Positions 14,261 to 37,189 of a DNA stretch of 55,312 nucleotides are shown piece after piece. This stretch comes from a virus (taxonomy: Duplodnaviria > Caudoviricetes), in IMG/VR virus record IMGVR_UViG_3300020182_002848, positions 1-55,312 of that record. One strand, given 5' to 3'. How positions within the stretch are numbered: position 1 is the stretch's first letter; every line of letters starts with the position of its first letter. The notes below the pieces were generated by a model, which was not told the origin of the DNA, ran no database searches, and saw only the letters and a list, made by a program, of their open reading frames with translations. Made by a program: the position numbers and the translations under genes.

Positions 14261-14263
14261 AAT

Positions 14264-15979
14264 ATGGAAAACAACGCATTACAAGTAGATTATACAAATT
14301 GGGAAAAAGGAAAAAACTACCCAGAATGGATGGATGAAATTTCTTTAGCAACTATATCTAAAGGTTATTTACTCCCAGGAGAAGATGTAAAAAAAGCATA
14401 TAGAAGAGTTTCTAATGCCTCTGCTAATAGACTTAAAAAACCAGAATTAGCTAATAAATTCTTTAAAATTATGTGGAATGGTTGGTTAGGATTAGCATCA
14501 CCTGTATTATCAAATATGGGAACTGATCGTGGTTTACCAATTTCGTGTTTTGGTGTTGATACACCCGATTCAATACGTGGAATCGGTTTAACTAACGCGG
14601 AACTAATGAAATTAACAGCATCCGGTGGGGGTGTAGGTATTTCGTTAAATCGCATTAGAGAACGTGGAACTGAAATCTCAGGAAATGGTAAAAGTGAAGG
14701 TGTAGTACCCTGGGCTAAAATATTTGATTCATCAATTATTGCTACTAACCAAGGTAATGTTCGAAGAGGAGCAGCATCTGTTAATTTAGATATAGAACAT
14801 GGAGATATAGAAGAATTCTTACAAATTCGTAGACCAAAAGGTGATCCAAACAGACAATGTCTAAATTTACATCAATGTGTTGTTGTAGGAGATTCATTTA
14901 TGAGAAAGCTAGAAGCAAGAGACCCAGAAGCAATGAATAGATGGGCTACTGTTTTAAAGTCAAGAATGGAAACAGGTGAACCCTATATAATGTATAAGGA
15001 TAATGTTAATAAAGATAACCCAATAGCTTATAGACTAAATAATTTAGATGTAAGTATGACAAATATTTGTTCTGAAATTACATTATTTACAGATGAAGAA
15101 CATAGTTTTATTTGTTGTCTATCTTCTATGAATTTATCTAAATATGATGAATGGAAAGATACAGATGCCGTTGAATTAGCTACTTGGTTCCTAGATGGAG
15201 TAATGCAAGAATTTATTGATAAATCAGCAGGTAAAACTTCATTAGAAAGAACATATAACCATGCTCGTAAAGGTAGAGCTTTAGGTTTAGGTGTAATGGG
15301 TTGGCATTCTTTCTTACAACAAAAAGAATTACCCTTTAATTCAATAGCATCTACAGCACATACTCATAATATATTTTCAGACATTAGGAGTAAAGCAGAA
15401 AAAGCATCTATGGCCTTAGCTCAAGAATATGGAGAACCATTATGGTGTAGAGGTACAGGTATGAGAAATACACATTTATTAGCAATTGCTCCAACAGTAT
15501 CTAATTCAGTTATTTGTGGGGGTATTAGTGCTGGTATTGAACCTCTACCTGCTAATATTTACACTTTTAATGGTGCTAAAGGTACTTTTATTAGAAAAAA
15601 TAAAGTATTACAATCCATTTTAATTGAAAAGGGTGAAGATAAAGATAAATGGTGGGATCAAATGTTAGCTGAGGATGGTTCAGCACAAGGTTTACCAGAT
15701 AATATTCTAAACCCAGAAGAAAAAGAATTGTTTTTAACATTCCCTGAAATTAATCAATTAGAATTAGTGCGCCAAGCGGCAATTAGACAACGTTATATTG
15801 ATCAAACACAATCGTTAAATCTATCTTTTGATGTGAATGATTCACCAAAATGGATTAATCAAGTACATTTAGAAGGTTGGAAATTAGGAATTAAAACATT
15901 TTATTATCTAAGAACTGATAGTGTTATTAAAGGAGATTTAGGTTCTCGTATGGCCGATTGCGTTTCATGCGATGGTTAA
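14264..15979 (+). CDS. nrdA: Ribonucleotide reductase class I alpha subunit (no ATP cone)
   Basis: 'PISCF', 'GGGVG', 'TNICSEI', 'CCLSS', 'IAPT', 'KTFYY', C-terminal 'CVSCDG'. Confidence 0.95.
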   Translation: MENNALQVDYTNWEKGKNYPEWMDEISLATISKGYLLPGEDVKKAYRRVSNASANRLKKPELANKFFKIMWNGWLGLASPVLSNMGTDRGLPISCFGVDTPDSIRGIGLTNAELMKLTASGGGVGISLNRIRERGTEISGNGKSEGVVPWAKIFDSSIIATNQGNVRRGAASVNLDIEHGDIEEFLQIRRPKGDPNRQCLNLHQCVVVGDSFMRKLEARDPEAMNRWATVLKSRMETGEPYIMYKDNVNKDNPIAYRLNNLDVSMTNICSEITLFTDEEHSFICCLSSMNLSKYDEWKDTDAVELATWFLDGVMQEFIDKSAGKTSLERTYNHARKGRALGLGVMGWHSFLQQKELPFNSIASTAHTHNIFSDIRSKAEKASMALAQEYGEPLWCRGTGMRNTHLLAIAPTVSNSVICGGISAGIEPLPANIYTFNGAKGTFIRKNKVLQSILIEKGEDKDKWWDQMLAEDGSAQGLPDNILNPEEKELFLTFPEINQLELVRQAAIRQRYIDQTQSLNLSFDVNDSPKWINQVHLEGWKLGIKTFYYLRTDSVIKGDLGSRMADCVSCDG

Positions 15980-18164: not shown

Positions 18165-18165
18165 A

Positions 18166-20731: not shown

Positions 20732-20749
20732 AAGTAATATATGGAGATT

Positions 20750-20804: not shown

Positions 20805-20818
20805 CAAAAATAAAGGTC

Positions 20819-21450: not shown

Positions 21451-22248
21451 ATGAAAGTATCACACGAAGTACCTAGATGTTTACTAAACGCATCACAAGT
21501 TTTTAATGATTATGATTATTGTTTACCTCATCTATTAGATCAAGATGAAGAATATAAACAATATTTTGAAAAGGCTAGGGATGAAGGACGTTATGTTATT
21601 ATGGATAACTCACTTCATGAATTAGGAGAAGCATATGATTATGATAGATTAAGATATTGGGTTAATGAATTAAAACCTAATGAGTTTATAGTACCAGATG
21701 TTTGGATGGATTGTTCTCAAACAGCAGCACAAGCTAAGTACTGGAAACAATTCAAATATCCTAAAAAAACAAAATTAATTGCTGTAATTCAAGGTGAAAA
21801 TAAAAACCAAGCATATCTATGTGCTAACCTATTAGCTGAATTAGGATATGACAAATTATGTGTATCTTATGGTGCTACTTGGTATAATGATTTCTTCCCA
21901 CATACTAACGCAGATATGGGAAAGGCATTAGGTAGAGTAAGATTTGTACAGGGTCTATTTAAATTAAAACAATTAAAAGATATTAAATTTCATTTACTAG
22001 GGTGTTCAATACCACAAGAATTTGGATGGTATGATGATGGATTTCCATCAAGAATTGAATCAATTGATACTTCAAACCCTATAATGGCAGCTTTGGATGG
22101 AACTAGATATAATAGTAATGGTATGAATTACAAACCAAATGCTAATATGAATGATTTTTTTGATATTGAATATGAAGATATAAATTATATCGATATACTT
22201 TATAATACAACTAAATTTAGAGAAATTAATAATTTAAAAACCAAATAG
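21451..22248 (+). CDS. TGT/DpdA-like guanine transglycosylase-fold protein
   Basis: 'IMDNS', 'VPDV', 'AVIQG', 'FHLLG', 'SIDTS' follow the motif order of TGT/DpdA TIM barrels; lies next to queC/D/E and folE. Confidence 0.65.
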   Translation: MKVSHEVPRCLLNASQVFNDYDYCLPHLLDQDEEYKQYFEKARDEGRYVIMDNSLHELGEAYDYDRLRYWVNELKPNEFIVPDVWMDCSQTAAQAKYWKQFKYPKKTKLIAVIQGENKNQAYLCANLLAELGYDKLCVSYGATWYNDFFPHTNADMGKALGRVRFVQGLFKLKQLKDIKFHLLGCSIPQEFGWYDDGFPSRIESIDTSNPIMAALDGTRYNSNGMNYKPNANMNDFFDIEYEDINYIDILYNTTKFREINNLKTK

Positions 22249-22250
22249 TT

Positions 22251-22442
22251 ATGATGTCACTTTATGATTACCGAGGTCACGCAGATAAAGACGGGACAGG
22301 ATTAAAAGTTAATGCTTATGCAATATTAACAAACCAACCTTATAAAAAAAGGTTATTAGAATTTAATAATATGGAAGTATTTTTATATAGGAAAGAATTC
22401 TTAGATGAATATTTTAAAGTTCAAGAAATTTTCAATAAATAA
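22251..22442 (+). CDS. Hypothetical protein
   Basis: Tightly packed ORF, 'SLYDYRG...FLDEYF'. Confidence 0.6.
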   Translation: MMSLYDYRGHADKDGTGLKVNAYAILTNQPYKKRLLEFNNMEVFLYRKEFLDEYFKVQEIFNK

Positions 22443-22445
22443 ATT

Positions 22446-22643
22446 ATGGCTAAATTAACAAGAACAGTAAATTATGCTAACTTCAGATGGGAAGAATACG
22501 TGCTAACAGAAGAAGAACTAACAAAGTGGAAAACAGGTGATGAAGATCTTCAACAAGAAATTATAGATGATGCGGATTGGGATCTAGTAAGAGATAAACC
22601 AATTGATGATTACAGTGACGTAGAATTTAAAGAAGACGAATAA
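22446..22643 (+). CDS. Hypothetical acidic protein
   Basis: Tightly packed ORF. Confidence 0.6.
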   Translation: MAKLTRTVNYANFRWEEYVLTEEELTKWKTGDEDLQQEIIDDADWDLVRDKPIDDYSDVEFKEDE

Positions 22644-22644
22644 T

Positions 22645-22830
22645 ATGGCAGAATTTATAAAACACGCATTAGGTCTTTGTGGAGAGCACTTTCATCCAAA
22701 TTTATGGACACTTCTTATAGGAGGGGTTGGATTCTCTACTTTCTTTTCATATGTTCGATCATATATAAAATGTAAATTTAATCAAGCGTTGGCCTATACG
22801 CAAAATACCTGGCAAAAATTAAATAAATAA
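22645..22830 (+). CDS. Small membrane protein
   Basis: 'HALGLCGEHFHP' followed by a hydrophobic segment. Confidence 0.6.
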   Translation: MAEFIKHALGLCGEHFHPNLWTLLIGGVGFSTFFSYVRSYIKCKFNQALAYTQNTWQKLNK

Positions 22831-22832
22831 AT

Positions 22833-23651
22833 ATGGCACATTGTGTAGTAAGTTTAAGTGGTGGAATGGATAGCAGCACCCTATTGTTAAGAGCTATCGA
22901 AGAGTATGATACAGTAACTGGTATCTCATTTGACTATGGTCAAAAACACAAAGTAGAGCTAGAAAGAGCTCAATCATTAATTGATTACCTTGCAAGTAAA
23001 GGTCACAAAGTAAATTATCGTCAAATTAAACTAGATGGATTAGTAGATTTACTAGATTCTGCATTAGTAGAAGGTGGAGATGATGTACCTGAAGGACATT
23101 ATGAACAAGATAATATGAAAGAAACTGTTGTTCCTAACAGAAACAAAATGTTTGCTTCTATTACTCAAGCAGTAGCTTTATCTATAGCAAATAAAAAAGA
23201 AGATGTTTGTGATATTGCTTTAGGAATTCATGCTGGTGATCATGCTGTTTATCCTGATTGTAGACAAGAATTTAGAGATGCAGATGATGCAGCTTTTAGA
23301 ATGGGAAATTGGGATGCTGATAGAGTAGGTTACTTTACTCCTTATTTAAATACTGATAAATTTGGTATTTTACAAGATGGAGAAAAATTATGTGAATCGT
23401 TAGGAATTGATTTTAACGAAGTATATAAAAGAACAAATACCTCTTATAAACCAATGAAAGTTTACAGCAGACCTGAAACAAATGCTTGGGAATGGTATAG
23501 TGATTATAAATCAGCTTCATCAGTAGAACGTATTGAGGCTTTTATTAAATTAGGTAGACCTGATCCTGTTGGATATGCTGATGAAACAGGTGTAGTTAGT
23601 TACCAAGTTGCAAAAGCTCATGTTGAGAAAGTTCTTGCTGAATACGTATAG
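22833..23651 (+). CDS. queC: 7-cyano-7-deazaguanine synthase
   Basis: 'SLSGGMDS' PP-loop, 'FDYGQKH', 'VPNRN', 'YPDCR'. The C-terminal Zn cysteines are replaced by Ser. Confidence 0.9.
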   Translation: MAHCVVSLSGGMDSSTLLLRAIEEYDTVTGISFDYGQKHKVELERAQSLIDYLASKGHKVNYRQIKLDGLVDLLDSALVEGGDDVPEGHYEQDNMKETVVPNRNKMFASITQAVALSIANKKEDVCDIALGIHAGDHAVYPDCRQEFRDADDAAFRMGNWDADRVGYFTPYLNTDKFGILQDGEKLCESLGIDFNEVYKRTNTSYKPMKVYSRPETNAWEWYSDYKSASSVERIEAFIKLGRPDPVGYADETGVVSYQVAKAHVEKVLAEYV

Positions 23652-23679
23652 ATACATATAAATATTTAATAATACAGTA

Positions 23680-23826
23680 ATGACAACAAATCAACAATCA
23701 AACAACGGACAAACCCAAGTTAATAGTGCTAGGGAAACGTTTAATTCAAAGGTATCTCGACTAAGTATGTTAGGGAAATCTAAAAAAGTTGCCTGGGATA
23801 GTTTTAGAAGAAACAGGTCAATTTAA
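23680..23826 (+). CDS. Small basic protein (48 aa, not in ORF track)
   Basis: MTTNQQSNNGQTQVNSARETFNSKVSRLSMLGKSKKVAWDSFRRNRSI; downstream of an ATACGTATA motif at 23642. Confidence 0.5.
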   Translation: MTTNQQSNNGQTQVNSARETFNSKVSRLSMLGKSKKVAWDSFRRNRSI

Positions 23827-23831
23827 ATTAT

Positions 23832-23922
23832 AGAGAGACAGTAAAGCTGATTAAATTGAGATTATGGTAAAGGTTAACCACTCATTAACGCAGTAACCTT
23901 GAAAGACCCGAAATGTCTCTCT
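23832..23922 (+). ncRNA. Candidate structured RNA with pseudoknot, family unassigned
   Basis: 9-bp closing stem AGAGAGACA/TGTCTCTCT; interrupted inner stem; loop AAGGTTA complementary to downstream TAACCTT; fills the gap up to the tRNA. Confidence 0.6.
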
Positions 23923-23927
23923 TAAAA

Positions 23928-24000
23928 TGTCCTGTGGTGTAATTGGTAACACGTCTGTTTTTGGTACAGAAGAGTATAGGTTCGAGACCTGTCGGGACAA
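23928..24000 (+). tRNA. tRNA-Gln(UUG), CCA not encoded
   Basis: Acceptor TGTCCTG/CGGGACA; D arm GTGT-AATTGGTA-ACAC; anticodon stem TCTGT/ACAGA with loop TTTTGGT (TTG at 23961-23963); T arm with GGTTCGAGACC. Confidence 0.93.
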
Positions 24001-24011
24001 CAAAAAGTTAT

Positions 24012-24248
24012 ATGAAAAAATTTATAGAATTTTCTCTAATTTGGTACAGCCAACAAATGGCAATTCCCTTTTGGGTTGTAGGTCATGTCCACCTTAGTAT
24101 AAATACCTATAAAGATATTCATGAAATAATTACTAGCTTAGGTTTAAACCTTCTAGTAGCAATTGGGTTTATAATAGATTATAAAAAAACAACAAAAAGT
24201 TATGAAAAAACAAAAACTACCAGACGCAAGAAAACACCAACAAATTAG
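24012..24248 (+). CDS. Small membrane protein (start corrected to lie after the tRNA)
   Basis: ATG at 24012 preceded by AAAAGTTAT; two hydrophobic segments. Confidence 0.55.
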   Translation: MKKFIEFSLIWYSQQMAIPFWVVGHVHLSINTYKDIHEIITSLGLNLLVAIGFIIDYKKTTKSYEKTKTTRRKKTPTN

Positions 24249-24366
24249 CTTTATCAAATCAGGAATCCGTATTTTAGGGTACGGAGCTTTATGGTATAGC
24301 TTGGATATTGCAGTTATTTTACTTATATTGAGTGAAATAGTAGGAATAGGAGAAGAATTAGTATAA
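24202..24366 (+). CDS. Small membrane protein (54 aa, not in ORF track)
   Basis: MKKQKLPDARKHQQISFIKSGIRILGYGALWYSLDIAVILLILSEIVGIGEELV; AAAAGTT before the ATG. Confidence 0.65.
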   Translation: MKKQKLPDARKHQQISFIKSGIRILGYGALWYSLDIAVILLILSEIVGIGEELV

Positions 24367-24386
24367 ATAAATTTAAATCAAAAATA

Positions 24387-24635
24387 ATGAAAACAATCCT
24401 TTATTTTACCGCTTCATGGTGTGGTCCATGTAAAGCATTAGCACCTAGAATGGAAAAACTAGCAAGTCAAATTAATTATAGAAAAATTGATGTTGACTCA
24501 AATCAAGATATGTCTATGAAATATGGAGTTCGAAATGTACCCTCTTTAGTATTAGTAGATGAAAATGGGACAGAATTAAATAGGATGGTTGGAGTACAAC
24601 CAGATCAAGCAATCTTAAATTTTTATAATGGGTAA
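24387..24635 (+). CDS. Thioredoxin
   Basis: 'FTASWCGPCK', 'VRNVPSL'. Confidence 0.9.
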   Translation: MKTILYFTASWCGPCKALAPRMEKLASQINYRKIDVDSNQDMSMKYGVRNVPSLVLVDENGTELNRMVGVQPDQAILNFYNG

Positions 24636-25092
24636 ATATCAATCAAGTAAAGTATTTGACGGTTTTAGTACAGTGTTTCGTCAATGGAGAGCAGAAAGTA
24701 CACACTGTAGATTTGTACACGGTTATGGAATTTCATTCAAAGTATATTTTGAAGGGGAATTAGATGACAGAAATTGGGTTTGGGATTTTGGAGGTATGAA
24801 ACGCGCTAAAACTCTAATTGATGGTAAACAACCAAAAGCTTGGATGGATTATATGTTTGATCATACAATGATTATAGCAGAAGATGATCCATGGATAGAA
24901 GCATTTAGACAAATGGATGAAGCAGAAGTTGCTCAAGTAAGAATCATACCAGCTACTGGCGCTGAGAAATTCTCAGAATATATTTATAATAAGTTAAATG
25001 AATTTGTAAAGACTGAAACTGATAATAGGGTTAGAGTTACTAAAGTTAAATTCATGGAACATGGTAAAAATGCAGCCTATTACTGCGAATAA
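24628..25092 (+). CDS. queD: 6-carboxytetrahydropterin synthase
   Basis: 'HCRFVHGY', 'WVWDFG', 'FDHT', 'GAEKF', 'EH...A'. Confidence 0.85.
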   Translation: MGKYQSSKVFDGFSTVFRQWRAESTHCRFVHGYGISFKVYFEGELDDRNWVWDFGGMKRAKTLIDGKQPKAWMDYMFDHTMIIAEDDPWIEAFRQMDEAEVAQVRIIPATGAEKFSEYIYNKLNEFVKTETDNRVRVTKVKFMEHGKNAAYYCE

Positions 25093-25135
25093 TAAGTTAT
25101 TAGTGAATGAAAAACCACTTAAAAAAATTAACAAT

Positions 25136-25921
25136 ATGCACAAACAATTGAAACGTATTGAGGATTACGATAAAAACCTCCCAATTGTAGAAATATATAC
25201 TGCAGTTCAATCTGAAGGCTCTAGAGCAGGATATCCAACAGTAGTAATTAGAACAACAGGGTGTACCCACAGATGTTATTTTGGTGAAGGGGGATGGTGT
25301 GATAGTTGGTATACAAGCATCCATCCAGAAAAAGGACATTTTAATTTTAAAGACATTATTCAAGCATATAAGGATAATCCTCATATTAAAGAGATGATGT
25401 TAACAGGAGGATCTCCTACTATGCATCCGGCATTAGTAAACGAATTAACACATTTTGCACATGAAAACAATATCTTTATTACTATTGAAACTGAGGGATC
25501 TCATTTTCTTCCTACCGATTATCCTATTAATTTGCTTAGCATTAGTCCTAAGTTTAGTAATAGTATCCCCGTTGTTGGTGTTGAAACTCCTCAAGGATCC
25601 ATTACCGACGAAAGAATGGTAAAACGTCATAATAAGTTTAGACTTAATTATGAAGCTATTTCACAATCAATTTCATACCATTCAGATTATCATATTAAAC
25701 CTGTATGGGATGGTAAGGATGAAGGTTCATTAGAAGAAATTCTTAATTTTATTAAAATTATGGATGTACCCCAAGATAAAGTATGGTTTATGCCTGCTGG
25801 GGATTCAAGAGAGGGTTTATTTAAATCTTATCCTTTAGTATTTGATTGGGTTAGAGATAATGGTTATAGAATGACTTGGAGACCACATATTATTGCTTTC
25901 GAAGATCAGCGAGAAGTATAG
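25136..25921 (+). CDS. queE: 7-carboxy-7-deazaguanine synthase (radical SAM)
   Basis: 'EIYTAVQSEG..AG.P.V.IRT.GC...C...WCDS', 'LTGGSP', 'IETEG', 'SISPK'. Start may be GTG at 25103. Confidence 0.9.
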   Translation: MHKQLKRIEDYDKNLPIVEIYTAVQSEGSRAGYPTVVIRTTGCTHRCYFGEGGWCDSWYTSIHPEKGHFNFKDIIQAYKDNPHIKEMMLTGGSPTMHPALVNELTHFAHENNIFITIETEGSHFLPTDYPINLLSISPKFSNSIPVVGVETPQGSITDERMVKRHNKFRLNYEAISQSISYHSDYHIKPVWDGKDEGSLEEILNFIKIMDVPQDKVWFMPAGDSREGLFKSYPLVFDWVRDNGYRMTWRPHIIAFEDQREV

Positions 25922-26061
25922 TGGATAAGCAAGAAGCCCTTCGTATATTAGAGGAAATAGAAGAGAACATCAATGTCTGTTGTGCTATAACAATGGAACC
26001 AGATGAAGTATTAGTATTAGTAGATAAATTAAAAAGTTATATAAATGGAGAACAAACGTAG
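25921..26061 (+). CDS. Small hypothetical protein (GTG start) overlapping a promoter motif
   Basis: Fills the queE-folE gap. Confidence 0.45.
   Translation: MDKQEALRILEEIEENINVCCAITMEPDEVLVLVDKLKSYINGEQT
25922..25949 (+). promoter_or_regulatory. TGG-N17-CGTATATT motif upstream of folE
   Basis: Exact consensus and spacing. Confidence 0.6.
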
Positions 26062-26740
26062 AAAAGTTCACGAAGAATTAGAAGTAGTAAAAGTAGGTTA
26101 TGCAAACGGGGTTGCCGAAGGATTTCCCTTTACAGATAAAGAAAAATTAAAAATGATTGATAAAGCAGAAAAAGCTTATGGTAAGTTTTTAGATGCTTTA
26201 AAATGTGATTGGAGAGATGATCCCAATTCAATGGAAACACCTCGACGAGTAGCTAAAGCTTATGTGAATGATTTATGGGCTGGTAGATATACAGCAATGT
26301 CCCCTATAACATCCTTTCCTTCGGATGGGTATGATGGAATCGTTATTGAAAGAAACATCCCTCTTACCTCAATGTGTTCACACCACCACCAAACAATTGG
26401 AGGTGTGGTACACATTGGTTATATTGCAGGAGAAGGTGGTCAAGTAATTGGATTATCTAAATTAAATAGAATTGTAGAATTATTTGGTCGTAGAGGAGCA
26501 ATACAAGAACAATTAACATCAGCTATCCATAATGCTGTAGATAAAATTACAGCAGGGAATAAAGGTGTTATTGTTACTATAGTAGGTACTCATAATTGTG
26601 TATCTTGTAGAGGTGTTAAACATCAAGGTGCAGCAATGGTTACAACTAAGGCATCAGGTGTATTTAGAGAAAATGATAATTTATCTCGTAAAGAGTTTTT
26701 TGATAGTTTAAAAATTAATAACGGAGGACATAATATATAA
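26045..26740 (+). CDS. folE: GTP cyclohydrolase I
   Basis: 'ETPRRVAK', 'SMCSHH', 'GLSKLNR', 'IQEQLT', 'HNCVSCRG'. Confidence 0.95.
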   Translation: MENKRRKVHEELEVVKVGYANGVAEGFPFTDKEKLKMIDKAEKAYGKFLDALKCDWRDDPNSMETPRRVAKAYVNDLWAGRYTAMSPITSFPSDGYDGIVIERNIPLTSMCSHHHQTIGGVVHIGYIAGEGGQVIGLSKLNRIVELFGRRGAIQEQLTSAIHNAVDKITAGNKGVIVTIVGTHNCVSCRGVKHQGAAMVTTKASGVFRENDNLSRKEFFDSLKINNGGHNI

Positions 26741-26745
26741 GAGAT

Positions 26746-27198
26746 ATGGCATTAAAAGCAGACAATAAAATATATTTATGTTGGGCGGACATTAATGACG
26801 CAGTTGATAATTTATGTAATAAAATTAGACACGATCAACCTAATATAGATTCTATTCATGGTATTGCTAGAGGAGGACTAATCCCAGCAGTATTAATATC
26901 GCATAAATTAGGTTTACCTTGGACGGATGTTATATTACCTAATACTTTAGTAGTAGATGACATATGTGATTCAGGAGCAACATTAGAAAAAGCCCCTGGA
27001 GTTTGGACAGCAGTATTACATTATAAACCCCACACATCATGTTTTCAACCTAGTATATGGTCTGAAATACATGAAGGGGATGAATGGTTAATTTATCCTT
27101 GGGAAACCAAAGATTCCAAACCTATTCAAGATTATTTAAAACCTGGAGCTAAAGAATGGAGAGATAAAGCAGATGAATATTATAAATCAAATAAATAA
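26746..27198 (+). CDS. Purine phosphoribosyltransferase (Gpt-like)
   Basis: 'GIARGGLIPA', PRPP loop 'LVVDDICDSGAT', 'W.IYPWE'. Confidence 0.85.
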   Translation: MALKADNKIYLCWADINDAVDNLCNKIRHDQPNIDSIHGIARGGLIPAVLISHKLGLPWTDVILPNTLVVDDICDSGATLEKAPGVWTAVLHYKPHTSCFQPSIWSEIHEGDEWLIYPWETKDSKPIQDYLKPGAKEWRDKADEYYKSNK

Positions 27199-27200
27199 AT

Positions 27201-27398
27201 ATGGAATATTGGCAAATTAAAACTCAAAACGAATTTGAGAATGAAAGAGGTAGGATACAAAAAACAACTGAATTATATTTAGTGGTAGCAGTATCAGCAA
27301 CTGATGCAGAAGCTAAGATGTACAAACATAATGAAGGTATGTCTAATTTTAGAGTTGTAGAAGTAAAGAAAACTAAATTTTTAGAAGTAATAAGCTAA
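27201..27398 (+). CDS. DUF4494-like small protein
   Basis: 'QKTTELYLVVAVSATDAEAK' resembles the Bacteroidota DUF4494 pattern KKVTE.YLVDA.SFTEAE. Confidence 0.55.
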   Translation: MEYWQIKTQNEFENERGRIQKTTELYLVVAVSATDAEAKMYKHNEGMSNFRVVEVKKTKFLEVIS

Positions 27399-27940
27399 TG
27401 GGAAAACAATTAAATTTTGGGTTTAATGACCCCGTAAACAAAGCAGTAGATGTGCCTTTTGTTAACGAAGTAGAAACATTTAATGGCACATTCGGAAAAC
27501 CAAATAATTATGAACCAACAATACCAGAAAAAAAGGAGTGGGAATTCGTATACGACTTTGTACTTGAAGAATTGGAAGAATATAGACAGGCTTGCGAAAA
27601 CGGAGACATCGTGGAAGTTTTGGATGCTTTGTGTGATATTGCTTATGTTTCCCTTGGGAACGGTACTATGTTACACGGTCTTAAAGGTAAGATATGGCCC
27701 GCGTATCAAGAAGTACAAGGAAGCAATATGTCGAAGTCTTGTAGCACTAAAGAGGAAGCCATGGAGACTGTCACCCTCCGCTCTAAAGAACAAGCTGAGC
27801 CATGTCACTTTGAACAGATCGAAGACCGATTCGTAGTATATAGAACACGTGATCGTAAAGTAATGAAGTCTATTAATTACTATAGACCAGATTTGAAACA
27901 ATTCTTTACACAAGAAGAATTAAAGAAAAAATATCTGTAA
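27398..27940 (+). CDS. MazG-like (all-alpha) NTP pyrophosphohydrolase
   Basis: 'EELEEY...D..EVLDALCDIAYV..G', 'EVQGSNMSK', 'KVMKS'. Confidence 0.85.
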   Translation: MGKQLNFGFNDPVNKAVDVPFVNEVETFNGTFGKPNNYEPTIPEKKEWEFVYDFVLEELEEYRQACENGDIVEVLDALCDIAYVSLGNGTMLHGLKGKIWPAYQEVQGSNMSKSCSTKEEAMETVTLRSKEQAEPCHFEQIEDRFVVYRTRDRKVMKSINYYRPDLKQFFTQEELKKKYL

Positions 27941-27947
27941 AAAACTT

Positions 27948-27975
27948 AGGCTCCCGTAGGGAGCCTTTGTATATT
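27948..27975 (+). promoter_or_regulatory. Hairpin/terminator superimposed on a promoter variant (AGG-N17-TGTATATT)
   Basis: AGGCTCCC-GTA-GGGAGCCT stem occupies the 17-nt spacer. Confidence 0.65.
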
Positions 27976-27996
27976 CACCCAAATAAAAGTTATATA

Positions 27997-29748
27997 ATGT
28001 ATAAAAAGTGTTATCAAGGTAAAAAATTAGGAGATAATTATTTTGAAATGCATCTATGGGAAGAAGATGGTGGTCATCAAATAGTACCCTATAGAAATGT
28101 AGTATACCAGGAGTGTACTGAAGAAGAACATACACATAAGGGGTTAAATGGTGAATTCCTAAAACCTATATCTAAGTGGTTTTATTCTAAAAACCCTGAT
28201 TATAGTGCTAAAAATACTCCTAATTTACATTTTCATGATATGAAACCCCACCAAAAGTTTTTAGTTGAGCGTTATGGTGTAAATGATGTTCCTTCTAAGG
28301 GACATAGAGAAGTTTTTTTTGATATTGAGTGTGAAATAGGAGGAGCATTAACTGAAGAATATATTGAAGATGCTCCTATGCCCATTACTTCTATTGCTTG
28401 GTGGGACAAACAAAAAGACTATTGGTCTATTCTTATTTTAGATAAAAAAAGTCAATTAGCACACACTAAAACAGGCAAAAATAAAAATAAAGAAATTATC
28501 CCTTGTACTACAGAAAATGAATTATTAGCTAAGTTTGTTGAAGCAATAAGAGAAATGGATCCTGATATTTTAGTAGGATACAATTCAGATTATTTTGATA
28601 TACCTTATTTATATTACAGAATGTGTAGAACCATAGGTAAAGATTGGGCTGATCATTTATCTCCTATTGGTAAAGTAGTTTCTAAGAAAAACAACAAATA
28701 CTTCTTTAAACAAAACCAATATGTAGATATTGTAGGTATTGAATCTTTAGATTACATTCGTTTACATAAAAAATATAGTTGGAAAGATGAACCTAGTTGG
28801 AAATTAGATGCAATTGGAGCCAAATATGTAGGTATGAATAAAGTTGAATATGAAGGAAACCTAGATCAATTATTTGAAACAGATATCCATAAATTCATTC
28901 AGTATAACTTTGTTGATGTTGAAATCTTACAAAAATTAGATGAAAAATTACAATATTTAGCTTTAACTAAAAATTTATCTCATAAGGGAAAACATAATTA
29001 TAGTGAAGTATATGCTAATAGTATATCCCAAGATGGTGCTATTTCAGCCTATTTACTCTCCCAAGACATAGTACCACCCCCAAAAGAACCATTCCCCCAA
29101 AAGAAAGATAGTTATGCAGGAGGGTATCTTTTTTGCCCTAAAGCAGGGTTATATAAGTATATGTTTGATGAAGATTTAACTTCGCTATATCCATCTATAA
29201 TAATGTCTATAAACATAGGTAAGGAAACATTTGTGGGGCGTATTGTAGATGCTGATGACCGTAATAATAGACTGGGTCTTAACGATTTAAAAGAACGTGA
29301 TCCTGAAGAAGAATTACTAGTTGAAAATAAAAAACGACAACAAACTAGTGTAAATGTTGGTAGATTAATAGCTATGATTGAACAAAATAACTTGGCAGTA
29401 GCAGCTAATGGTTCAATGTTTAGAACAGATAAAGAATCAGTTTTATCTACTATTCTAAAGAAATGGTTTGAAGAACGAGTTGTTTATAAAAACCGCATGA
29501 AAAAGGCTTATAAGGCAGGAGATAAGGAATTAGGTGAATATAACTATTTAATGCAATACACAATGAAAATTCTACTTAACAGTTTATATGGGGCTACAGC
29601 ATTACCTTCATTTAGATATGGTATGAACTTTCAAACCTTAAGTGAAGCAATCACCTTAAGTGGACACAGAATAATACAAGAATCGGCTTTATGTGCAAAC
29701 CGCCATATGAATAAAGTTATGCGTGAAGAAATAAAATTAGAAATATGA
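27997..29748 (+). CDS. Family-B DNA polymerase, N-terminal part (exonuclease + motifs A and B)
   Basis: 'FFDIEC', 'GYNSDYFDIPY', 'YNFVDV', 'DLTSLYPSI', 'KILLNSLYG', 'ITLSG'; ends before motif C. Confidence 0.9.
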   Translation: MYKKCYQGKKLGDNYFEMHLWEEDGGHQIVPYRNVVYQECTEEEHTHKGLNGEFLKPISKWFYSKNPDYSAKNTPNLHFHDMKPHQKFLVERYGVNDVPSKGHREVFFDIECEIGGALTEEYIEDAPMPITSIAWWDKQKDYWSILILDKKSQLAHTKTGKNKNKEIIPCTTENELLAKFVEAIREMDPDILVGYNSDYFDIPYLYYRMCRTIGKDWADHLSPIGKVVSKKNNKYFFKQNQYVDIVGIESLDYIRLHKKYSWKDEPSWKLDAIGAKYVGMNKVEYEGNLDQLFETDIHKFIQYNFVDVEILQKLDEKLQYLALTKNLSHKGKHNYSEVYANSISQDGAISAYLLSQDIVPPPKEPFPQKKDSYAGGYLFCPKAGLYKYMFDEDLTSLYPSIIMSINIGKETFVGRIVDADDRNNRLGLNDLKERDPEEELLVENKKRQQTSVNVGRLIAMIEQNNLAVAANGSMFRTDKESVLSTILKKWFEERVVYKNRMKKAYKAGDKELGEYNYLMQYTMKILLNSLYGATALPSFRYGMNFQTLSEAITLSGHRIIQESALCANRHMNKVMREEIKLEI

Positions 29749-30008
29749 CATTAAAAAAACAATCTATTAGGAAAAACCAAGTAATCACGGTAAATGGAGA
29801 ACCCATTTCTAAAGATGAGCTTATAACTAGAAGTAAAGAATGGAGTGAAATCCAAGAAAACTTTTTTAGAAAAATGCTTAAACAAGGAGGAACTTTTAAA
29901 GTAGCAGGAATAAAATATAAAGTAGAACTAATCGAAAGAAGTGATTTAGATTCTAATGGAAACAAACCAATAACAGTACCACCCTTACCAGGTGAAAGAA
30001 CATTTTAA
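29745..30008 (+). CDS. Hypothetical protein inserted between the polB halves
   Basis: ATGA-coupled to polB-N. Confidence 0.6.
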   Translation: MTLKKQSIRKNQVITVNGEPISKDELITRSKEWSEIQENFFRKMLKQGGTFKVAGIKYKVELIERSDLDSNGNKPITVPPLPGERTF

Positions 30009-30019
30009 AAAATAAATAT

Positions 30020-30403
30020 ATGTTAGTAGAAGTATCAAATGGAGAATTATTAGACAAAATTTCAATTTTAGAGTTAAAATTACTTAAAATTGAGGATGAA
30101 GAAAAGTTAGTAAACATTCAAAAAGAATTTGACACACTAAACCCTTTAGTTGTAGAATTATTTGAAAAGTATGATGGTCAATTACAAAATCATTATCTTG
30201 AATTAGCAAAAATTAATGGTGAACTTTGGAATATAGAAGATTGGATTAGAGATTGTGAACGTGAAAAGAGATTTGATAAGGAGTTTGTAGAGTTGGCTCG
30301 TTCTGTTTATATTACCAATGATAAAAGATGTGAAGTTAAAAAAATTATTAATTTAATGACATCATCAGGTTTAGTAGAGGAAAAATCGTATAAAGAATAT
30401 TAA
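30020..30403 (+). CDS. DUF6165-like helical protein
   Basis: 'VSNGELLDKISILELK...LW.IED.IR..E....FD.EFVELARSVY.TND.R...K..IN....S.LVEEKSY'. Confidence 0.7.
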   Translation: MLVEVSNGELLDKISILELKLLKIEDEEKLVNIQKEFDTLNPLVVELFEKYDGQLQNHYLELAKINGELWNIEDWIRDCEREKRFDKEFVELARSVYITNDKRCEVKKIINLMTSSGLVEEKSYKEY

Positions 30404-31338
30404 TGAAACATTTAGAAGAAACACCTTGGTGGATTTGTGATGAAGGGGATGAGAATTATTGTGCTTATGTAGATACAGACTCTAATTACTTTAATGCTGA
30501 ACCCTTACTTCTTAAATTACATCCTAATTTCGAAGAACTATCAGCAGAAGAAAAAGATGATATTTTAGAAAAAGTAGCAATGAAGTATCAGGACGTAATT
30601 AATGAGGATTATGATAGATTAGCTAAAGAATGTTTCAATGTAACAGAACATAGACTTGAAATGAAAACTGAGTGTGTTATTCGTTCAGCTTATTTTAGAG
30701 CAACTCGTCGTTATGCTCAATGGATCACTAAACAAGAAGGAATTGCTAAAGAATCTTTGGATATTAAGGGTTTAGAATTTATGAAAGCAAATTTTCCACC
30801 TATTTTAGGATCATTTTTTAATGATATTTTACAACAAGTATTAAAGGGTGAAGAAAAAGCTAGTATTTTAGATCAAATTAAAGTATTTAAAAAACAAATA
30901 CTAGATGGTACAATACCACTTACTAAATTAGGTAACCCTTCAGCAATTAAAAAACTAGAAAAGTATTCAGGTAAAAATACTAGAGCAGGAGAAATGTTTA
31001 CAGAAATACTTAAAGGAGCCCCTGCACCTGTACGTGCTACAATTCGTTATAATGATCTGTTAAGATTATGGCAATTAGATAAAAAACATAATTTAATTAC
31101 CCAAGCAGATAAAGTAAAATGGATTTATTGTAAAGATAATCCTTATAAAATAGAAGCATTAGCGTTTCAGGACTTTGATGTACCAGAAAAAATTAATGAC
31201 TTTTTAAATGCTTATGCTGACAGACAAAAAGTATTCGATTCAATATTATTAAATAAATTAGAAGGATTTTTCTCGGATCTCCAATGGTCATTAGATTTAA
31301 ACCCTTACACAAATGCATTAGCATCCTTTGAGATATAA
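30403..31338 (+). CDS. Family-B DNA polymerase, C-terminal part (motif C + thumb)
   Basis: 'YVDTDSNY', 'LEMKTE', 'RRYA', 'IKGLE', 'DKVKWIY'. Confidence 0.9.
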   Translation: MKHLEETPWWICDEGDENYCAYVDTDSNYFNAEPLLLKLHPNFEELSAEEKDDILEKVAMKYQDVINEDYDRLAKECFNVTEHRLEMKTECVIRSAYFRATRRYAQWITKQEGIAKESLDIKGLEFMKANFPPILGSFFNDILQQVLKGEEKASILDQIKVFKKQILDGTIPLTKLGNPSAIKKLEKYSGKNTRAGEMFTEILKGAPAPVRATIRYNDLLRLWQLDKKHNLITQADKVKWIYCKDNPYKIEALAFQDFDVPEKINDFLNAYADRQKVFDSILLNKLEGFFSDLQWSLDLNPYTNALASFEI

Positions 31339-31361
31339 AATAAATTTCATATATTACAACT

Positions 31362-32601: not shown

Positions 32602-32620
32602 AAGTTTTACCAAAAACGCG

Positions 32621-32648: not shown

Positions 32649-32670
32649 CACGTCTAAATAAATAAGTTAT

Positions 32671-36968: not shown

Positions 36969-37189
36969 GTAAATTAGTAGATATGTTACGTACATCTGCA
37001 CAGGCAGATAAAGCAAAAGCCTTATTATCACTTGAATTATTAGGTAATAAAGCAGTTGGTATTGGAGACCATTCAACAGGAGATTTTTACAAAAATGCTG
37101 AAGAAGCACTTATTATGTTAGTAGATGCTGACGATAGGTTAGAAGCATTAGACAAATATTTCAATACCAAAGGATTACTAAATGGGTAG
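36965..37189 (+). CDS. Small hypothetical phage protein
   Basis: 'VGIGDHS' motif; ATGA-coupled. Confidence 0.65.
   Translation: MSKLVDMLRTSAQADKAKALLSLELLGNKAVGIGDHSTGDFYKNAEEALIMLVDADDRLEALDKYFNTKGLLNG

What the first reader, a model, noticed from the sequence alone, without database searches (positions are those of the whole stretch)
21451..31338. 7-deazaguanine cluster coupled to a purine PRTase, an NTP pyrophosphatase and a split PolB: possible nucleotide-level guanine replacement
Seen: a divergent TGT/DpdA-fold gene, queC, queD, queE and folE. Directly after folE come a Gpt-like phosphoribosyltransferase, a MazG-like pyrophosphatase and the family-B polymerase; a second MazG-fold gene (DUF1599-like) is at 37182. 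No QueF/ArcS is visible in the window. Established: FolE-QueD-QueE-QueC makes preQ0, and DpdA swaps it into DNA after replication. Phages that fully replace a base (dZ, hmdC, dU) pair a nucleotide-forming enzyme with a canonical-dNTP-destroying pyrophosphatase. Inference: the PRTase or the TGT-fold protein could put preQ0 on a sugar-phosphate, RNR/thioredoxin could reduce it, and MazG could deplete dGTP. That would be a pre-replicative route rather than the classic DpdA exchange.
Basis: partly seen in the sequence, partly recalled or inferred. Interest (0 to 1): 0.8.

Follow-up and report, generated by a model that had tools for sequence, protein, structure and literature searches.

The report
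Phage 7-deazaguanine DNA replacement gene cluster
A fragment of an uncultured marine phage carries the gene set that related phages use to swap every guanine in their DNA for a 7-deazaguanine, and next to it sit a purine-recycling enzyme and a nucleotide pyrophosphatase that could help settle whether the swap happens before or after the DNA is copied.

Summary
Window 21451-31338 encodes a DpdA3-family TGT-fold enzyme, QueC, thioredoxin, QueD, QueE, FolE, a small XPRT-like phosphoribosyltransferase (PRTase), DUF4494, a MazG/HisE-like pyrophosphatase and a split PolB.

It is a new member of the known DpdA3 type of 7-deazaguanine system. Three tested DpdA3 phages replace 100% of G. No QueF was found in six near-complete relatives, so preQ0 or ADG is expected.

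New here: in 50,697 phage records the PRTase family occurs almost only in DpdA3 lineages (24 of 26 hit records). None of the ten commonest genera that carry a 9g-type DpdA is among those hits. In marine relatives, 32 of 35 clusters hold one of two alternative PRTase types.

One 96%-complete relative has DpdA3 and QueCDE but neither PRTase nor FolE. MazG-like genes were found in only 3 of 5 lineages.

Best reading (0.42): DpdA3 exchanges the base, and the PRTase recycles the released guanine into GTP for FolE. A pre-replicative route stays open (about 0.35-0.4), most plausibly with DpdA3 acting on mononucleotides. The PRTase as the nucleotide-forming step is the least supported variant. The question needs biochemistry.

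The parts
13274..15979 (+). Class I ribonucleotide reductase, small (13274-14260) and large (14264-15979) subunits; context only
   Evidence: Pfam Ribonuc_red_sm 4.6e-61 and Ribonuc_red_lgC 1.9e-98
21451..22248 (+). DpdA3-family minimal TGT-fold transglycosylase (265 aa)
   Evidence: 35% identity, E 8e-56, full length, to immuto DpdA. About 37% identity to CP220-type phage proteins. AF2 pLDDT 96.6. VIA Z 16.6, rmsd 3.3, 232 residues aligned to TGT. Foldseek finds DpdA 7ui4 at E 4.1e-07. D52, D83 and D206 are invariant in 54 homologues.
22251..22830 (+). Three small ORFs (63, 65 and 61 aa) of unknown function
   Evidence: No Pfam or PHROG hit. Found by tblastn in 9, 8 and 15 of 80 related loci.
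22833..23651 (+). QueC-like 7-cyano-7-deazaguanine synthase
   Evidence: Pfam QueC 2.9e-37. TIGR00364 scores 130.8, below its cut-off of 150.3.
23928..24001 (+). tRNA-Gln (anticodon UUG)
   Evidence: ARAGORN; Rfam tRNA 61.4 bits
24387..24635 (+). Thioredoxin
   Evidence: Pfam Thioredoxin 8.8e-19. Present in 51 of 80 DpdA3 loci.
24628..25092 (+). QueD-like 6-carboxytetrahydropterin synthase
   Evidence: Pfam PTPS 5.2e-13; phrog_2389 1.7e-40
25061..25921 (+). QueE-like radical SAM 7-carboxy-7-deazaguanine synthase
   Evidence: phrog_2076 1.8e-52. 78% DNA identity to immuto queE.
26045..26740 (+). FolE, GTP cyclohydrolase I
   Evidence: Pfam 2.8e-42
26746..27198 (+). Small XPRT-like type I phosphoribosyltransferase that lacks about 26 residues between the PPi loop and the PRPP motif
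   Evidence: Pfam 4.8e-08. NF006613 scores 43.7 against a cut-off of 138. PDB 1vdm at 9.9e-12, with the gap visible in the alignment. 56% identity to immuto gp211. Alignments.
27201..27398 (+). DUF4494 small protein (65 aa)
   Evidence: Pfam 3.8e-10. 64% identity to immuto gp209. Present in 37 of 80 loci.
27398..27940 (+). MazG/HisE-like all-alpha nucleotide pyrophosphohydrolase
   Evidence: Pfam PRA-PH 2.2e-09, 38 bits against a cut-off of 21.3. phrog_671 4.2e-27. 73% identity to immuto gp208. Present in 77 of 80 PRTase loci.
27948..27966 (.). G+C-rich hairpin (8 pairs) between the MazG-like gene and PolB
   Evidence: Terminator-like scan: 14 sites found against 3.0 +/- 1.7 in shuffles
27967..29748 (+). 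Family B DNA polymerase, N-terminal piece (exonuclease and start of polymerase domain)
   Evidence: phrog_262 4.5e-111, profile positions 23-569
29745..30403 (+). Two ORFs inside the PolB split: 87 aa (unknown) and 127 aa (DUF6165)
   Evidence: Pfam DUF6165 4.1e-14. No Rfam intron. Present in 56 and 23 of 80 loci.
30403..31338 (+). Family B DNA polymerase, C-terminal piece
   Evidence: phrog_262 2.5e-44, profile positions 565-842
37182..37664 (+). DUF1599 protein (Pfam name: Nucleotide modification associated domain 1)
   Evidence: Pfam 2.1e-08. Seen within 10 kb in only 9 of 80 PRTase loci.

Best explanation
The window is about a third of a roughly 160-kb uncultured marine phage related to Flavobacterium phage immuto. 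Genes 21451-27940 are a DpdA3-type 7-deazaguanine DNA-modification cluster.

FolE, QueD, QueE and QueC turn GTP into preQ0 (or its amide, ADG). No QueF is present, so the pathway stops there. The minimal TGT-fold enzyme DpdA3 exchanges guanine for that base, probably at essentially all G positions, as in the three DpdA3 phages whose DNA has been measured.

The PRTase most likely salvages the guanine that every exchange releases (guanine + PRPP -> GMP -> GTP). This returns it to FolE and halves the guanine cost of full replacement. The MazG-like enzyme acts on a guanine-type (d)NTP pool, and its substrate is unknown.

Shown here: gene identities, fold, family membership and co-occurrence. Inferred: the base made, the extent of replacement, the substrates of the PRTase and MazG, and that DpdA3 works on DNA.
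For: DpdA3 membership:
- 35% identity, E 8e-56, to the immuto DpdA.
- The family profile finds CP220 (3.3e-82), CC_R7 (3.6e-28), phiST (4.4e-25) and MaInes (7.4e-11).
- TGT fold at Z 16.6. The nucleophile motif aligns with bDpdA.
- DpdA3 phages replace 100% of G (passages of PMC10516641).

The pathway enzymes are present. QueF is found in 0 of 6 near-complete relatives, with immuto positive.

The PRTase is tied to DpdA3 lineages:
- 26 of 50,697 records hit: immuto 4, Campylobacter 13, Cellulophaga 5, Brevundimonas 2, unclassified 2.
- The 233 records with a 9g-type DpdA come from other genera. 0 of 5 PRTase-bearing representatives have that type.

Any guanine-type PRTase seems to do the job:
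- 23 loci have the XPRT-like type and 9 the Hpt-like type, out of 35 DpdA3 loci that reach MazG. 0 of 80 loci have both.
- The Hpt-like type scores 149.2 against the HGPRTase cut-off of 150.

The PRTase is accessory and goes with FolE:
- G036 (96% complete) has DpdA3, QueC/D/E and MazG but no PRTase and no FolE.
- In G001 and G002 the FolE-PRTase-MazG block lies more than 30 kb from DpdA3.
- FolE is adjacent to the PRTase in 69 of 80 loci and in MaInes.

D71, D72, D75 and K94 of the PRTase are invariant, as expected for a 6-oxopurine enzyme that uses N7 (mechanism recalled).
Against: - No DpdA3 has been shown to act on DNA. The authors' tests in E. coli failed.
- Guanine release also occurs in phages with up to about 30% replacement, yet the ten commonest genera with a 9g-type DpdA (188 of 233 records) are absent from the PRTase hits. 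The all-or-none link is stronger than a cost argument predicts.
- A dGTP-hydrolysing MazG would be pointless or harmful if replication uses dGTP, yet it is the best conserved gene of the module: 73% identity to immuto and 77 of 80 loci.
- The window-type PRTase lacks the segment that in other type I PRTases forms the catalytic flexible loop (role recalled), so it is not an ordinary Gpt.
- QueD-QueE-FolE-PRTase is the same enzyme set as the tubercidin core, in which the PRTase TubE uses 7-carboxy-7-deazaguanine.
- According to PMC10516641, ADG nucleoside was found in the cytoplasm of CP220-infected cells.
Confidence: 0.42

Rival explanations
1. Nucleotide-level base exchange (pre-replicative). 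DpdA3 is a transglycosylase for mononucleotides rather than DNA: dGMP + preQ0 -> 7-deaza-dGMP + guanine. The MazG-like enzyme makes dGMP from dGTP and so also removes the competing dGTP. Kinases raise the product to the triphosphate, PolB incorporates it, and the PRTase recycles the released guanine to GTP for FolE.
For: - It gives a role to every conserved gene: universal DpdA3, an accessory PRTase and the tightly linked MazG.
- DpdA3 is a bare 265-aa barrel. Only 59 residues follow the nucleophile Asp, whereas bDpdA has a 128-residue insertion there that forms its DNA-binding surface.
- 2 of 10 long homologues are fused to a PurN-type formyltransferase domain. PurN's own substrate is a ribonucleotide (recalled).
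- DpdA3 tests on DNA in E. coli failed, and ADG nucleoside was reported in infected cells.
- The logic parallels T4 hmC and the S-2L dZ triad (recalled; listing).
Against: - No TGT-family enzyme is known to use a mononucleotide.
- No match to the PRA-PH, MazG or dUTPase_2 families was found in CP220 or MaInes.
- A T4-type dNMP kinase was found in only 2 of 10 records, and in 0 of 6 near-complete marine relatives.
- The hydrophobic residue aligned with bDpdA's essential Phe265 is kept.
- pI does not discriminate.
Confidence: 0.26
2. PRTase-driven pre-replicative route. The PRTase puts CDG or preQ0 on PRPP, as TubE does. Kinases and the phage RNR/thioredoxin convert the ribonucleotide to the dNTP, MazG destroys dGTP, and PolB incorporates the analogue. 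DpdA3 only mops up residual G or has another role.
For: - TubE is a proven CDG:PRPP phosphoribosyltransferase that works with FolE, QueD and QueE homologues (passages of PMC6112128).
- The block QueD-QueE-FolE-PRTase stays together even when DpdA3 and QueC lie more than 30 kb away.
- The phiST gene order is PRTase, dNMP-kinase-like gene, unknown ORF, RNR large subunit. MaInes has RNR, dNMP kinase, FolE, PRTase.
- The PRTase is exclusive to DpdA3 lineages.
Against: - A 96%-complete relative keeps DpdA3, QueCDE and MazG without any PRTase. Two further, less complete records also lack one.
- Two different PRTase families, one scoring at the HGPRTase cut-off, fill the same slot.
- The N7-serving Asp is invariant (role recalled).
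- It leaves the universal, catalytically intact DpdA3 without a necessary role.
- It would also create a 7-deaza-GTP pool for RNA.
Confidence: 0.1
3. The PRTase and MazG are general nucleotide-metabolism genes that merely sit in the replication module and have no specific tie to 7-deazaguanine.
For: MazG-like homologues occur in 239 phage records of many kinds. A distant PRTase homologue (28% identity) sits in a 55.7-kb record without DpdA3, FolE or QueC. Loci L065-L067 have the PRTase beside ligase and repair genes, on fragments that are 6-34% complete.
Against: 24 of 26 PRTase-hit records belong to DpdA3 lineages. 32 of 35 marine DpdA3 clusters hold a PRTase of one of two types in the same slot. 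The lineages differ in polymerase and morphology, so the association arose or was kept repeatedly.
Confidence: 0.1
4. The que genes only raise queuosine precursors for host or phage tRNA; the DNA is not modified.
For: This older idea is quoted for DpdA-less phages in PMC6884629. A tRNA gene lies in the cluster.
Against: That tRNA is tRNA-Gln(UUG), which is not a queuosine tRNA (recalled). DpdA3 relatives are in phages whose DNA is fully modified. There is no QueF, which queuosine synthesis needs.
Confidence: 0.03

Closest known systems
[quoted passage not shown] 2023, PMC10516641)
   Same: It has DpdA3 (35% identity), QueD, QueE, FolE, the loop-less PRTase (56%), DUF4494 (64%) and the MazG-like gene (73%) in one cluster of a roughly 160-kb phage.
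   Different: Immuto also has QueF and the formyltransferase DpdN beside DpdA3, and uses a family A polymerase. The window clade has no QueF and no DpdN within 10 kb, and has a split PolB. A different final base is therefore expected (preQ0 or ADG).
Campylobacter phage CP220 (dADG, 100%) and Cellulophaga phage phiST (dDG, 100%)
   Same: Both have a DpdA3-family gene and a homologous small PRTase (28-31% identity).
   Different: Their PRTase lies far from DpdA3, about 109 kb away in CP220 and 17 kb in phiST, and keeps a short or full loop. CP220 has no detectable MazG, PRA-PH or dUTPase_2 family gene. phiST has a dNMP-kinase-like gene next to the PRTase.
Bacterial DpdA/DpdB preQ0 DNA insertase and tRNA-guanine transglycosylases
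   Same: They share the TIM-barrel fold and the nucleophile Asp motif, and presumably the double-displacement base-exchange chemistry (PMC10164549).
   Different: DpdA3 is 265 aa against 413-436 aa. It has no Pfam TGT hit, no large insertion after the nucleophile, no DpdB partner seen, and no conserved Cys/His cluster among its invariant columns. bDpdA modifies less than 0.1% of G, whereas DpdA3 phages reach 100%.
Tubercidin and toyocamycin biosynthesis (TubA/B/C + TubE; ToyH)
   Same: The same four enzyme types are clustered: GTP cyclohydrolase I, CPH4 synthase, CDG synthase and a purine-type PRTase. TubE condenses CDG with PRPP.
   Different: The phage cluster also has QueC and a TGT-fold enzyme. 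It has no UbiD decarboxylase, GMP reductase or Nudix gene. Sequence relatedness of the phage PRTase to TubE or ToyH was not tested because no sequence was at hand.
Pre-replicative base replacement in T4 (hmC) and cyanophage S-2L (2-aminoadenine)
   Same: A nucleotide-pool pyrophosphatase is encoded beside enzymes that make the replacement nucleotide and beside the polymerase (recalled; S-2L papers seen only as listing and abstract starts).
   Different: In those systems the nucleotide-forming enzyme is known, and no base-exchange enzyme is involved. Here the substrates of MazG, the PRTase and DpdA3 are all untested.

Membership tests
DpdA3 subfamily of DNA-guanine transglycosylases | Full-length sequence similarity to DpdA3 of phages with measured complete replacement | tested here: met
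   Immuto 35% identity, E 8e-56. CP220 group about 37% identity, 1e-35 to 4e-37. The family profile finds phiST at 4.4e-25.
DpdA3 subfamily of DNA-guanine transglycosylases | TGT/DpdA TIM-barrel fold | tested here: met
   pLDDT 96.6. Foldseek probability 1.00 to TGTs and to DpdA 7ui4. VIA Z 16.6, rmsd 3.3, 232 residues aligned.
DpdA3 subfamily of DNA-guanine transglycosylases | Nucleophile aspartate (bDpdA Asp256) | tested here: met
   D206 is invariant in 54 sequences. Its motif aligns with the bDpdA segment that holds Asp256 (E 0.041; residue role).
DpdA3 subfamily of DNA-guanine transglycosylases | General acid/base Asp and base-recognising Asp (bDpdA Asp95, Asp130) | tested here: inconclusive
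   D52 and D83 are invariant, but their equivalence to Asp95 and Asp130 was inferred from their order in the barrel, not from a residue-level superposition.
DpdA3 subfamily of DNA-guanine transglycosylases | Co-encoded CDG/preQ0 synthesis genes | tested here: met
   QueC, QueD, QueE and FolE lie within 4.5 kb. QueC is next to DpdA3 in 69 of 80 loci.
DpdA3 subfamily of DNA-guanine transglycosylases | Complete replacement of G in virion DNA; DNA as the substrate | not testable with these tools
   The phage is uncultured, and public runs are held as contigs only.
9g-type DpdA (DpdA1/DpdA2) | Detectable similarity to the phage 9g DpdA | tested here: not met
   The window protein's 25 tblastn hits include no Escherichia or Mycobacterium phage. 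The 9g DpdA finds 233 records but none of 5 DpdA3/PRTase phages.
Type I 6-oxopurine phosphoribosyltransferase (XPRT/Gpt-like) | PRPP-binding acidic motif and PPi loop | tested here: met
   R42-G43-G44 and D71, D72, D75, G77 and T79 are invariant in 18 sequences. They align to purine PRTase 1vdm at E 9.9e-12.
Type I 6-oxopurine phosphoribosyltransferase (XPRT/Gpt-like) | Segment between the PPi loop and the PRPP motif (flexible catalytic loop; role recalled) | tested here: not met
   9 residues in the window protein against 35 in 1vdm. The segment is also absent in immuto, short in CP220, and full in phiST, MaInes and the Hpt-like type.
Type I 6-oxopurine phosphoribosyltransferase (XPRT/Gpt-like) | Score above the NCBIfam XPRT equivalog cut-off | tested here: not met
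   43.7 bits against a cut-off of 138
TubE/ToyH-type 7-deazaguanine phosphoribosyltransferase | Activity with CDG or preQ0 and PRPP; sequence kinship to TubE | not tested
   Activity needs an assay.
MazG/HisE all-alpha NTP pyrophosphohydrolase | Family profile above the curated cut-off | tested here: met
   PRA-PH 38 bits against 21.3; phrog_671 4.2e-27
MazG/HisE all-alpha NTP pyrophosphohydrolase | Preference for dGTP | not testable with these tools
   No PDB relative by sequence (best E 0.43).
preQ0 pathway (FolE, QueD, QueE, QueC) | All four enzymes present above Pfam gathering scores | tested here: met
   144.6, 49.5, 29.8 and 128.7 bits against cut-offs of 27, 22.4, 29.5 and 22. All are below the NCBIfam equivalog cut-offs, so they are divergent.
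Family B DNA polymerase, split form | Two ORFs that together cover one polymerase profile | tested here: met
   phrog_262 positions 23-569 and 565-842. Separate PHROGs exist for each piece: phrog_2062 and phrog_1918.

The most novel reading that the evidence does not exclude
In DpdA3 phages guanine is replaced before replication, at the level of the nucleotide pool. The favoured form is that DpdA3 is the first TGT-fold enzyme that exchanges the base of a free deoxynucleotide (dGMP made by the MazG-like enzyme). The PRTase recycles the displaced guanine into GTP for the next round of 7-deazaguanine synthesis, and the polymerase then builds G-free DNA directly. The stated probability covers any pre-replicative route. 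The DpdA3-on-nucleotide form alone is about 0.26.
Probability: 0.36. Interest if true: 0.9.

Novelty: new member of a known kind. Interest (0 to 1): 0.6.

Why it matters
Phages that replace every G with a 7-deazaguanine resist most restriction enzymes. How they reach 100% is unsettled: a modified dGTP was proposed in 2019, and post-replicative exchange by DpdA3 was asserted in 2023 without any enzyme assay.

This window and its relatives add three things:
- The DpdA3 family is very large: 1,752 clusters at 50% identity and at least 589 IMG/VR loci. The window's region is held in marine metagenomes of 11 studies.
- DpdA3 clusters recurrently recruit a purine PRTase, of two interchangeable kinds, and often a MazG-like pyrophosphatase.
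- Three small soluble proteins (DpdA3, PRTase, MazG-like) are conserved at 35-73% identity in the cultured phage immuto.

A handful of in-vitro assays on those three proteins could therefore decide between pre- and post-replicative replacement. If DpdA3 works on nucleotides, it would be a new reaction class for the TGT fold and a tool for making 7-deaza-dNTPs enzymatically.

Tried and rejected
- AF2 model of the PRTase from an 18-sequence alignment: mean pLDDT 56.7.
- pI and net charge of 54 DpdA3 homologues (median pI 5.6): they do not differ from known DNA-binding proteins of the same window, so they say nothing about a DNA substrate.
- PDB sequence searches with the MazG-like and DUF1599 proteins: best E 0.43 and 0.39. 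No relation to a characterised dGTPase could be tested.
- dUTPase_2 family search in five DpdA3 phages: 0 of 5. The control rang in only 1 of 14 genomes, and HHpred in the paper's supplement does find this family in phiST. The search is therefore uninformative.
- T4-type dNMP kinase: 2 of 10 records (phiST weak, MaInes), and 0 of 6 near-complete marine relatives. It is not a general partner.
- Homologues of the immuto kinase, DpdN and QueF: 0 of 80 DpdA3 loci within 10 kb.
- Promoter scan: 72 sites against 67.4 +/- 8.2 in shuffles, so no signal.
- Rfam: only the tRNA, so there is no recognisable intron in the PolB split.
- Public runs: contigs only. The region is held in libraries labelled RNA from several studies. 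That shows neither transcription nor base modification.
- Crippen et al. 2019 (CP220 dADG) could not be read by DOI, PubMed id or PMC id. What is said of it comes from passages of PMC10516641 and PMC6884629.
- Earlier findings of this scan: none for this genome.
- Whether the hosts encode their own Hpt or Gpt was not tested.

Full report
**What is there**

The window is an IMG/VR viral contig of about 30% G+C with all genes on the + strand. CheckV puts it at 34% of a genome. Its nearest named relative by DNA is the 160-kb Flavobacterium phage vB_FspM_immuto (78% identity over queE only).

The window holds:
- a T4-like replication module: gp32, a RecA/UvsX-like protein, FEN, a DnaB-like helicase, RNR alpha and beta;
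- the cluster in question;
- a split PolB, Hsp20, GroES/GroEL, clamp loader, DUF1599 and a PD-(D/E)XK nuclease;
- a sugar/glycosyltransferase block.

Coordinates and scores are in the parts list. Three additions: a DUF4494 ORF lies between the PRTase and MazG; a tRNA-Gln(UUG) lies at 23928-24001; and two ORFs lie inside the PolB split.

**The TGT-fold gene is a DpdA3**

- It has no Pfam hit. It is 35% identical over its full length to the DpdA of immuto (E 8e-56) and about 37% identical to proteins of CP220-type Campylobacter phages.
- A profile of 54 homologues also finds phiST (4.4e-25), CC_R7 (3.6e-28) and a 266-aa protein beside QueE in Brevundimonas phage MaInes (7.4e-11).
- The AF2 model is confident (pLDDT 96.6). 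It superposes on tRNA-guanine transglycosylases at Z 16.6, rmsd 3.3 Å over 232 residues. Foldseek also finds the DNA preQ0 insertase DpdA, 7ui4, at E 4.1e-07.
- D52, D83 and D206 are invariant. The D206 motif aligns with the bDpdA segment that holds the nucleophile Asp256.
- Hutinet et al. 2023 (PMC10516641, passages read) defined DpdA3 from exactly these phages. They report 100% replacement of G in CP220 (dADG), phiST (dDG) and immuto (fdPreQ1). They state that insertion is post-replicative, and also that their attempts to test DpdA3 in E. coli were unsuccessful.

**Which base is made**

FolE, QueD, QueE and QueC are present and QueF is not. Because the window is a fragment, I searched near-complete relatives. 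QueF is found in 0 of 6 records at 96% completeness or more, and not in the 85%-complete closest long relative. Immuto, the positive control, has it. No DpdN homologue lies within 10 kb of DpdA3 in 80 loci. The clade therefore most likely stops at the QueC product, preQ0 or ADG. This is an inference.

**The co-occurrence test: named phage records**

By tblastn against 50,697 phage records:

| Query | Records hit | Where |
|---|---|---|
| Window PRTase | 26 | immuto 4, Campylobacter 13, Cellulophaga phiST group 5, Brevundimonas 2, unclassified 2 |
| MazG-like | 239 | many kinds of phage |
| Phage 9g DpdA | 233 | Mycobacterium 56, Escherichia 41, Pseudomonas 32, Vibrio 23, Rhizobium 14 and others |

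- Each of the four named PRTase lineages has a DpdA3-family gene.
- Ten of the 13 Campylobacter PRTase records also appear in the DpdA3 hit list. Two more are a separate contig of phage IBB_35, filed twice, and that phage's DpdA3 lies on another contig. CC_R7 has a divergent DpdA3 that only the profile finds.
- Two Campylobacter records, CJLB-14 and WX1, have DpdA3 but no PRTase hit at E ≤ 1e-3. Hits in that lineage lie near the threshold, at 4e-4 to 4e-6.
- One 55.7-kb unclassified record has a distant PRTase (28% identity) without DpdA3, FolE or QueC. The other unclassified record is a 4-kb fragment.
- None of the ten commonest genera with a 9g-type DpdA (188 of 233 records) appears among the PRTase hits. 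0 of 5 PRTase-bearing representatives have a 9g-type DpdA. That call had no internal positive control.
- The word 'phosphoribosyl' does not occur in the main text of PMC10516641. In its one held supplement it occurs only within the name of the PRA-PH family. 'DpdA3' occurs in no other relevant paper of the library.

The PRTase thus goes with the DpdA3 kind of system, not with 7-deazaguanine DNA in general.

**The co-occurrence test: metagenomic relatives**

Around 80 PRTase loci (identity ≥ 61%, flanks up to 10 kb, many cut upstream), tblastn finds MazG in 77, FolE in 69, PolB-N in 67, QueE in 63, QueD in 42, QueC in 23 and DpdA3 in 15. All 5 long records tested hold DpdA3 somewhere. In the two 100%-complete ones it lies more than 30 kb from the QueD-QueE-FolE-PRTase-MazG-PolB block.

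Starting instead from 80 DpdA3 loci (identity ≥ 49%):
- A whole-record search with the PRTase profile was run on the 39 of them whose contig is 20 kb or longer. It found a match in 20 of 39, and in 2 of 4 records at 90% completeness or more.
- One of the two complete 'misses', G029, has a different PRTase between QueE and FolE. It scores 149.2 bits on the HGPRTase equivalog, whose cut-off is 150. It is itself a large metagenomic family (1,000 proteins with E ≤ 1e-5 among 1,025 candidates).
- By tblastn, 25 loci have the XPRT-like type, 15 the Hpt-like type and none has both. Of the 35 loci that extend to MazG, 23 + 9 = 32 have a PRTase.
- The exceptions are L159, L160 and L170.
- L159 belongs to G036 (96% complete). 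It has DpdA3, QueC, QueD, QueE, MazG and PolB, but no PRTase by three searches (one search had two positive controls) and no FolE.
- G033 (75% complete) and G037 (47%, with FolE present) also show no PRTase.

**The PRTase itself**

- It is closest to XPRT/Gpt-type enzymes: 1vdm at 9.9e-12 and NF006613 at 43.7 bits against a cut-off of 138.
- It keeps the PPi loop, the acidic PRPP motif and a Lys-Pro and aromatic C-terminal hood. All are invariant in 18 homologues.
- It has 9 residues where 1vdm has 35. Immuto shares this deletion, CP220 has a short segment, and phiST, MaInes and the Hpt-like type have a full one. From memory, this segment forms the flexible catalytic loop of type I PRTases.
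- The AF2 model was too poor to say more (pLDDT 56.7).
- The family has 1,238 homologues with E ≤ 1e-3 among 1,252 candidates.

**MazG-like and kinases**

- The MazG-like protein passes the PRA-PH cut-off. It is the best conserved gene of the module (73% identity to immuto).
- A G+C-rich hairpin follows it, before PolB.
- Across lineages, a PRA-PH or MazG family match was found in immuto and G036 and weakly in phiST, just upstream of DpdA3 (1.8e-4; HHpred data in the paper's supplement). None was found in CP220 or MaInes.
- A dNMP-kinase-like gene lies next to the PRTase in phiST (PF21448, 3.2e-05) and two genes from it in MaInes, with FolE between (1.4e-11). The family is absent from 6 of 6 near-complete marine relatives, from immuto and from CP220.
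- Of 10 unusually long DpdA3 homologues, 2 carry a C-terminal PurN-type formyltransferase domain, 2 carry homing-endonuclease motifs and 6 have no Pfam hit.

**Weighing the mechanisms**

Three readings fit the anatomy.

(B) DpdA3 exchanges G in DNA, and the PRTase salvages the released guanine for FolE.
- It fits the homology of DpdA3, the interchangeability of two guanine-type PRTases, the invariant aspartate of the PRPP motif, and the PRTase-less and FolE-less genome G036.
- It explains neither the all-or-none link of the PRTase to DpdA3 nor the conserved MazG.

(C) DpdA3 exchanges the base on a free deoxynucleotide. MazG supplies dGMP and removes dGTP, and the PRTase again salvages guanine.
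- It accounts for every conserved gene. It also fits the bare barrel, the PurN-type fusions and the failed DNA assays.
- It has no precedent in the TGT family, and MazG is not found in all lineages.

(A) The PRTase makes the 7-deaza nucleotide, as TubE does (PMC6112128, passages).
- It fits the tubercidin-like gene set and the gene order in phiST.
- G036 and the Hpt-type replacement argue against it, and it gives the universal DpdA3 no necessary role.

I put these at B 0.42, C 0.26, A 0.10, unrelated housekeeping genes 0.10 and tRNA-only 0.03. The remainder is unassigned. The numbers are judgement, not computation.

**Novelty**

The cluster is a new, uncultured member of a kind described in 2023. 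The pre-replicative idea was already raised for Campylobacter phages (PMC6884629, passage). What I did not find in print is the specific, recurrent recruitment of a purine PRTase, of two alternative families, by DpdA3 clusters. Crippen et al. 2019 could not be read, so it may mention the CP220 PRTase. One GenBank record, F379, already labels it 'purine phosphoribosyltransferase / queuosine biosynthesis protein'.

Noticed in passing
window 23928-24001 (+): A tRNA-Gln (anticodon UUG) gene sits inside the que cluster, between queC and the thioredoxin gene. It overlaps the start of the mechanical ORF 23943-24248, which is therefore probably not a gene.
   Followed up: partly
window 27967-31338 (+): The family B polymerase is encoded as two ORFs that meet at profile position about 567. 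An 87-aa ORF and a DUF6165 ORF lie between them, and no Rfam intron is found. The split is conserved in relatives (PolB-C in 56 of 80 loci, the 87-aa ORF in 56, DUF6165 in 23), and separate PHROGs exist for each piece.
   Followed up: partly
L140 14733-15236 (record G029), and 14 other DpdA3 loci: Sister phages carry an Hpt-like PRTase (167 aa, at the HGPRTase equivalog cut-off) instead of the loop-less XPRT-like one, in the same cluster. In G029 it follows a staphylococcal-nuclease-like gene and a 4HBT thioesterase gene.
   Followed up: partly
record G036 (locus L159): A 96%-complete relative has DpdA3, QueC/D/E, the MazG-like gene and PolB but neither FolE nor any PRTase. The two genes appear to have been lost, or never gained, together.
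   Followed up: partly
proteins P0179, P0190 (447 aa): These are natural fusions of DpdA3 with a PurN-type formyltransferase domain. They match the DpdA3-DpdN adjacency in immuto.
   Followed up: no
window 38882-49410 (+): A block of glycosyltransferases (GT4, GT2), NAD-dependent epimerase/dehydratases, a UDP-glucose/GDP-mannose dehydrogenase, a methyltransferase and DUF2334. It is a sugar-nucleotide pathway of unknown target in a phage.
   Followed up: no
window 32182-34940 (+): Phage-encoded Hsp20, GroES and GroEL in a row. Immuto and CP220 also have GroES near their replication genes.
   Followed up: no
window 27948-27966: A perfect 8-bp G+C-rich hairpin lies exactly between the MazG-like stop codon and the PolB start codon. 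It may be a transcript boundary or a processing site.
   Followed up: no
L091 862-1662 (-), Brevundimonas phage MaInes: The hypothetical protein MAINES_00850, beside QueE, matches the DpdA3 profile (7.4e-11, N-terminal half). This siphovirus also has QueC/D/E, FolE, the PRTase, a dNMP kinase and RNR. It is a candidate for heavy 7-deazaguanine replacement that I did not see reported.
   Followed up: partly
window 20500-31500 in public runs: The region is held at 78-94% of sampled words by 14 marine metagenome runs, and at 74-75% by two libraries labelled RNA. In all, 11 studies hold it or a part of it, and many strain variants were seen. These are contigs only, so neither expression nor modification can be read from them.
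   Followed up: partly
window 18142-18594 (+) and 37182-37664 (+): A second, weak thioredoxin-like ORF lies upstream of the cluster. The DUF1599 protein ('Nucleotide modification associated domain 1') lies 10 kb downstream and is not consistently linked to the cluster (9 of 80 loci).
   Followed up: no
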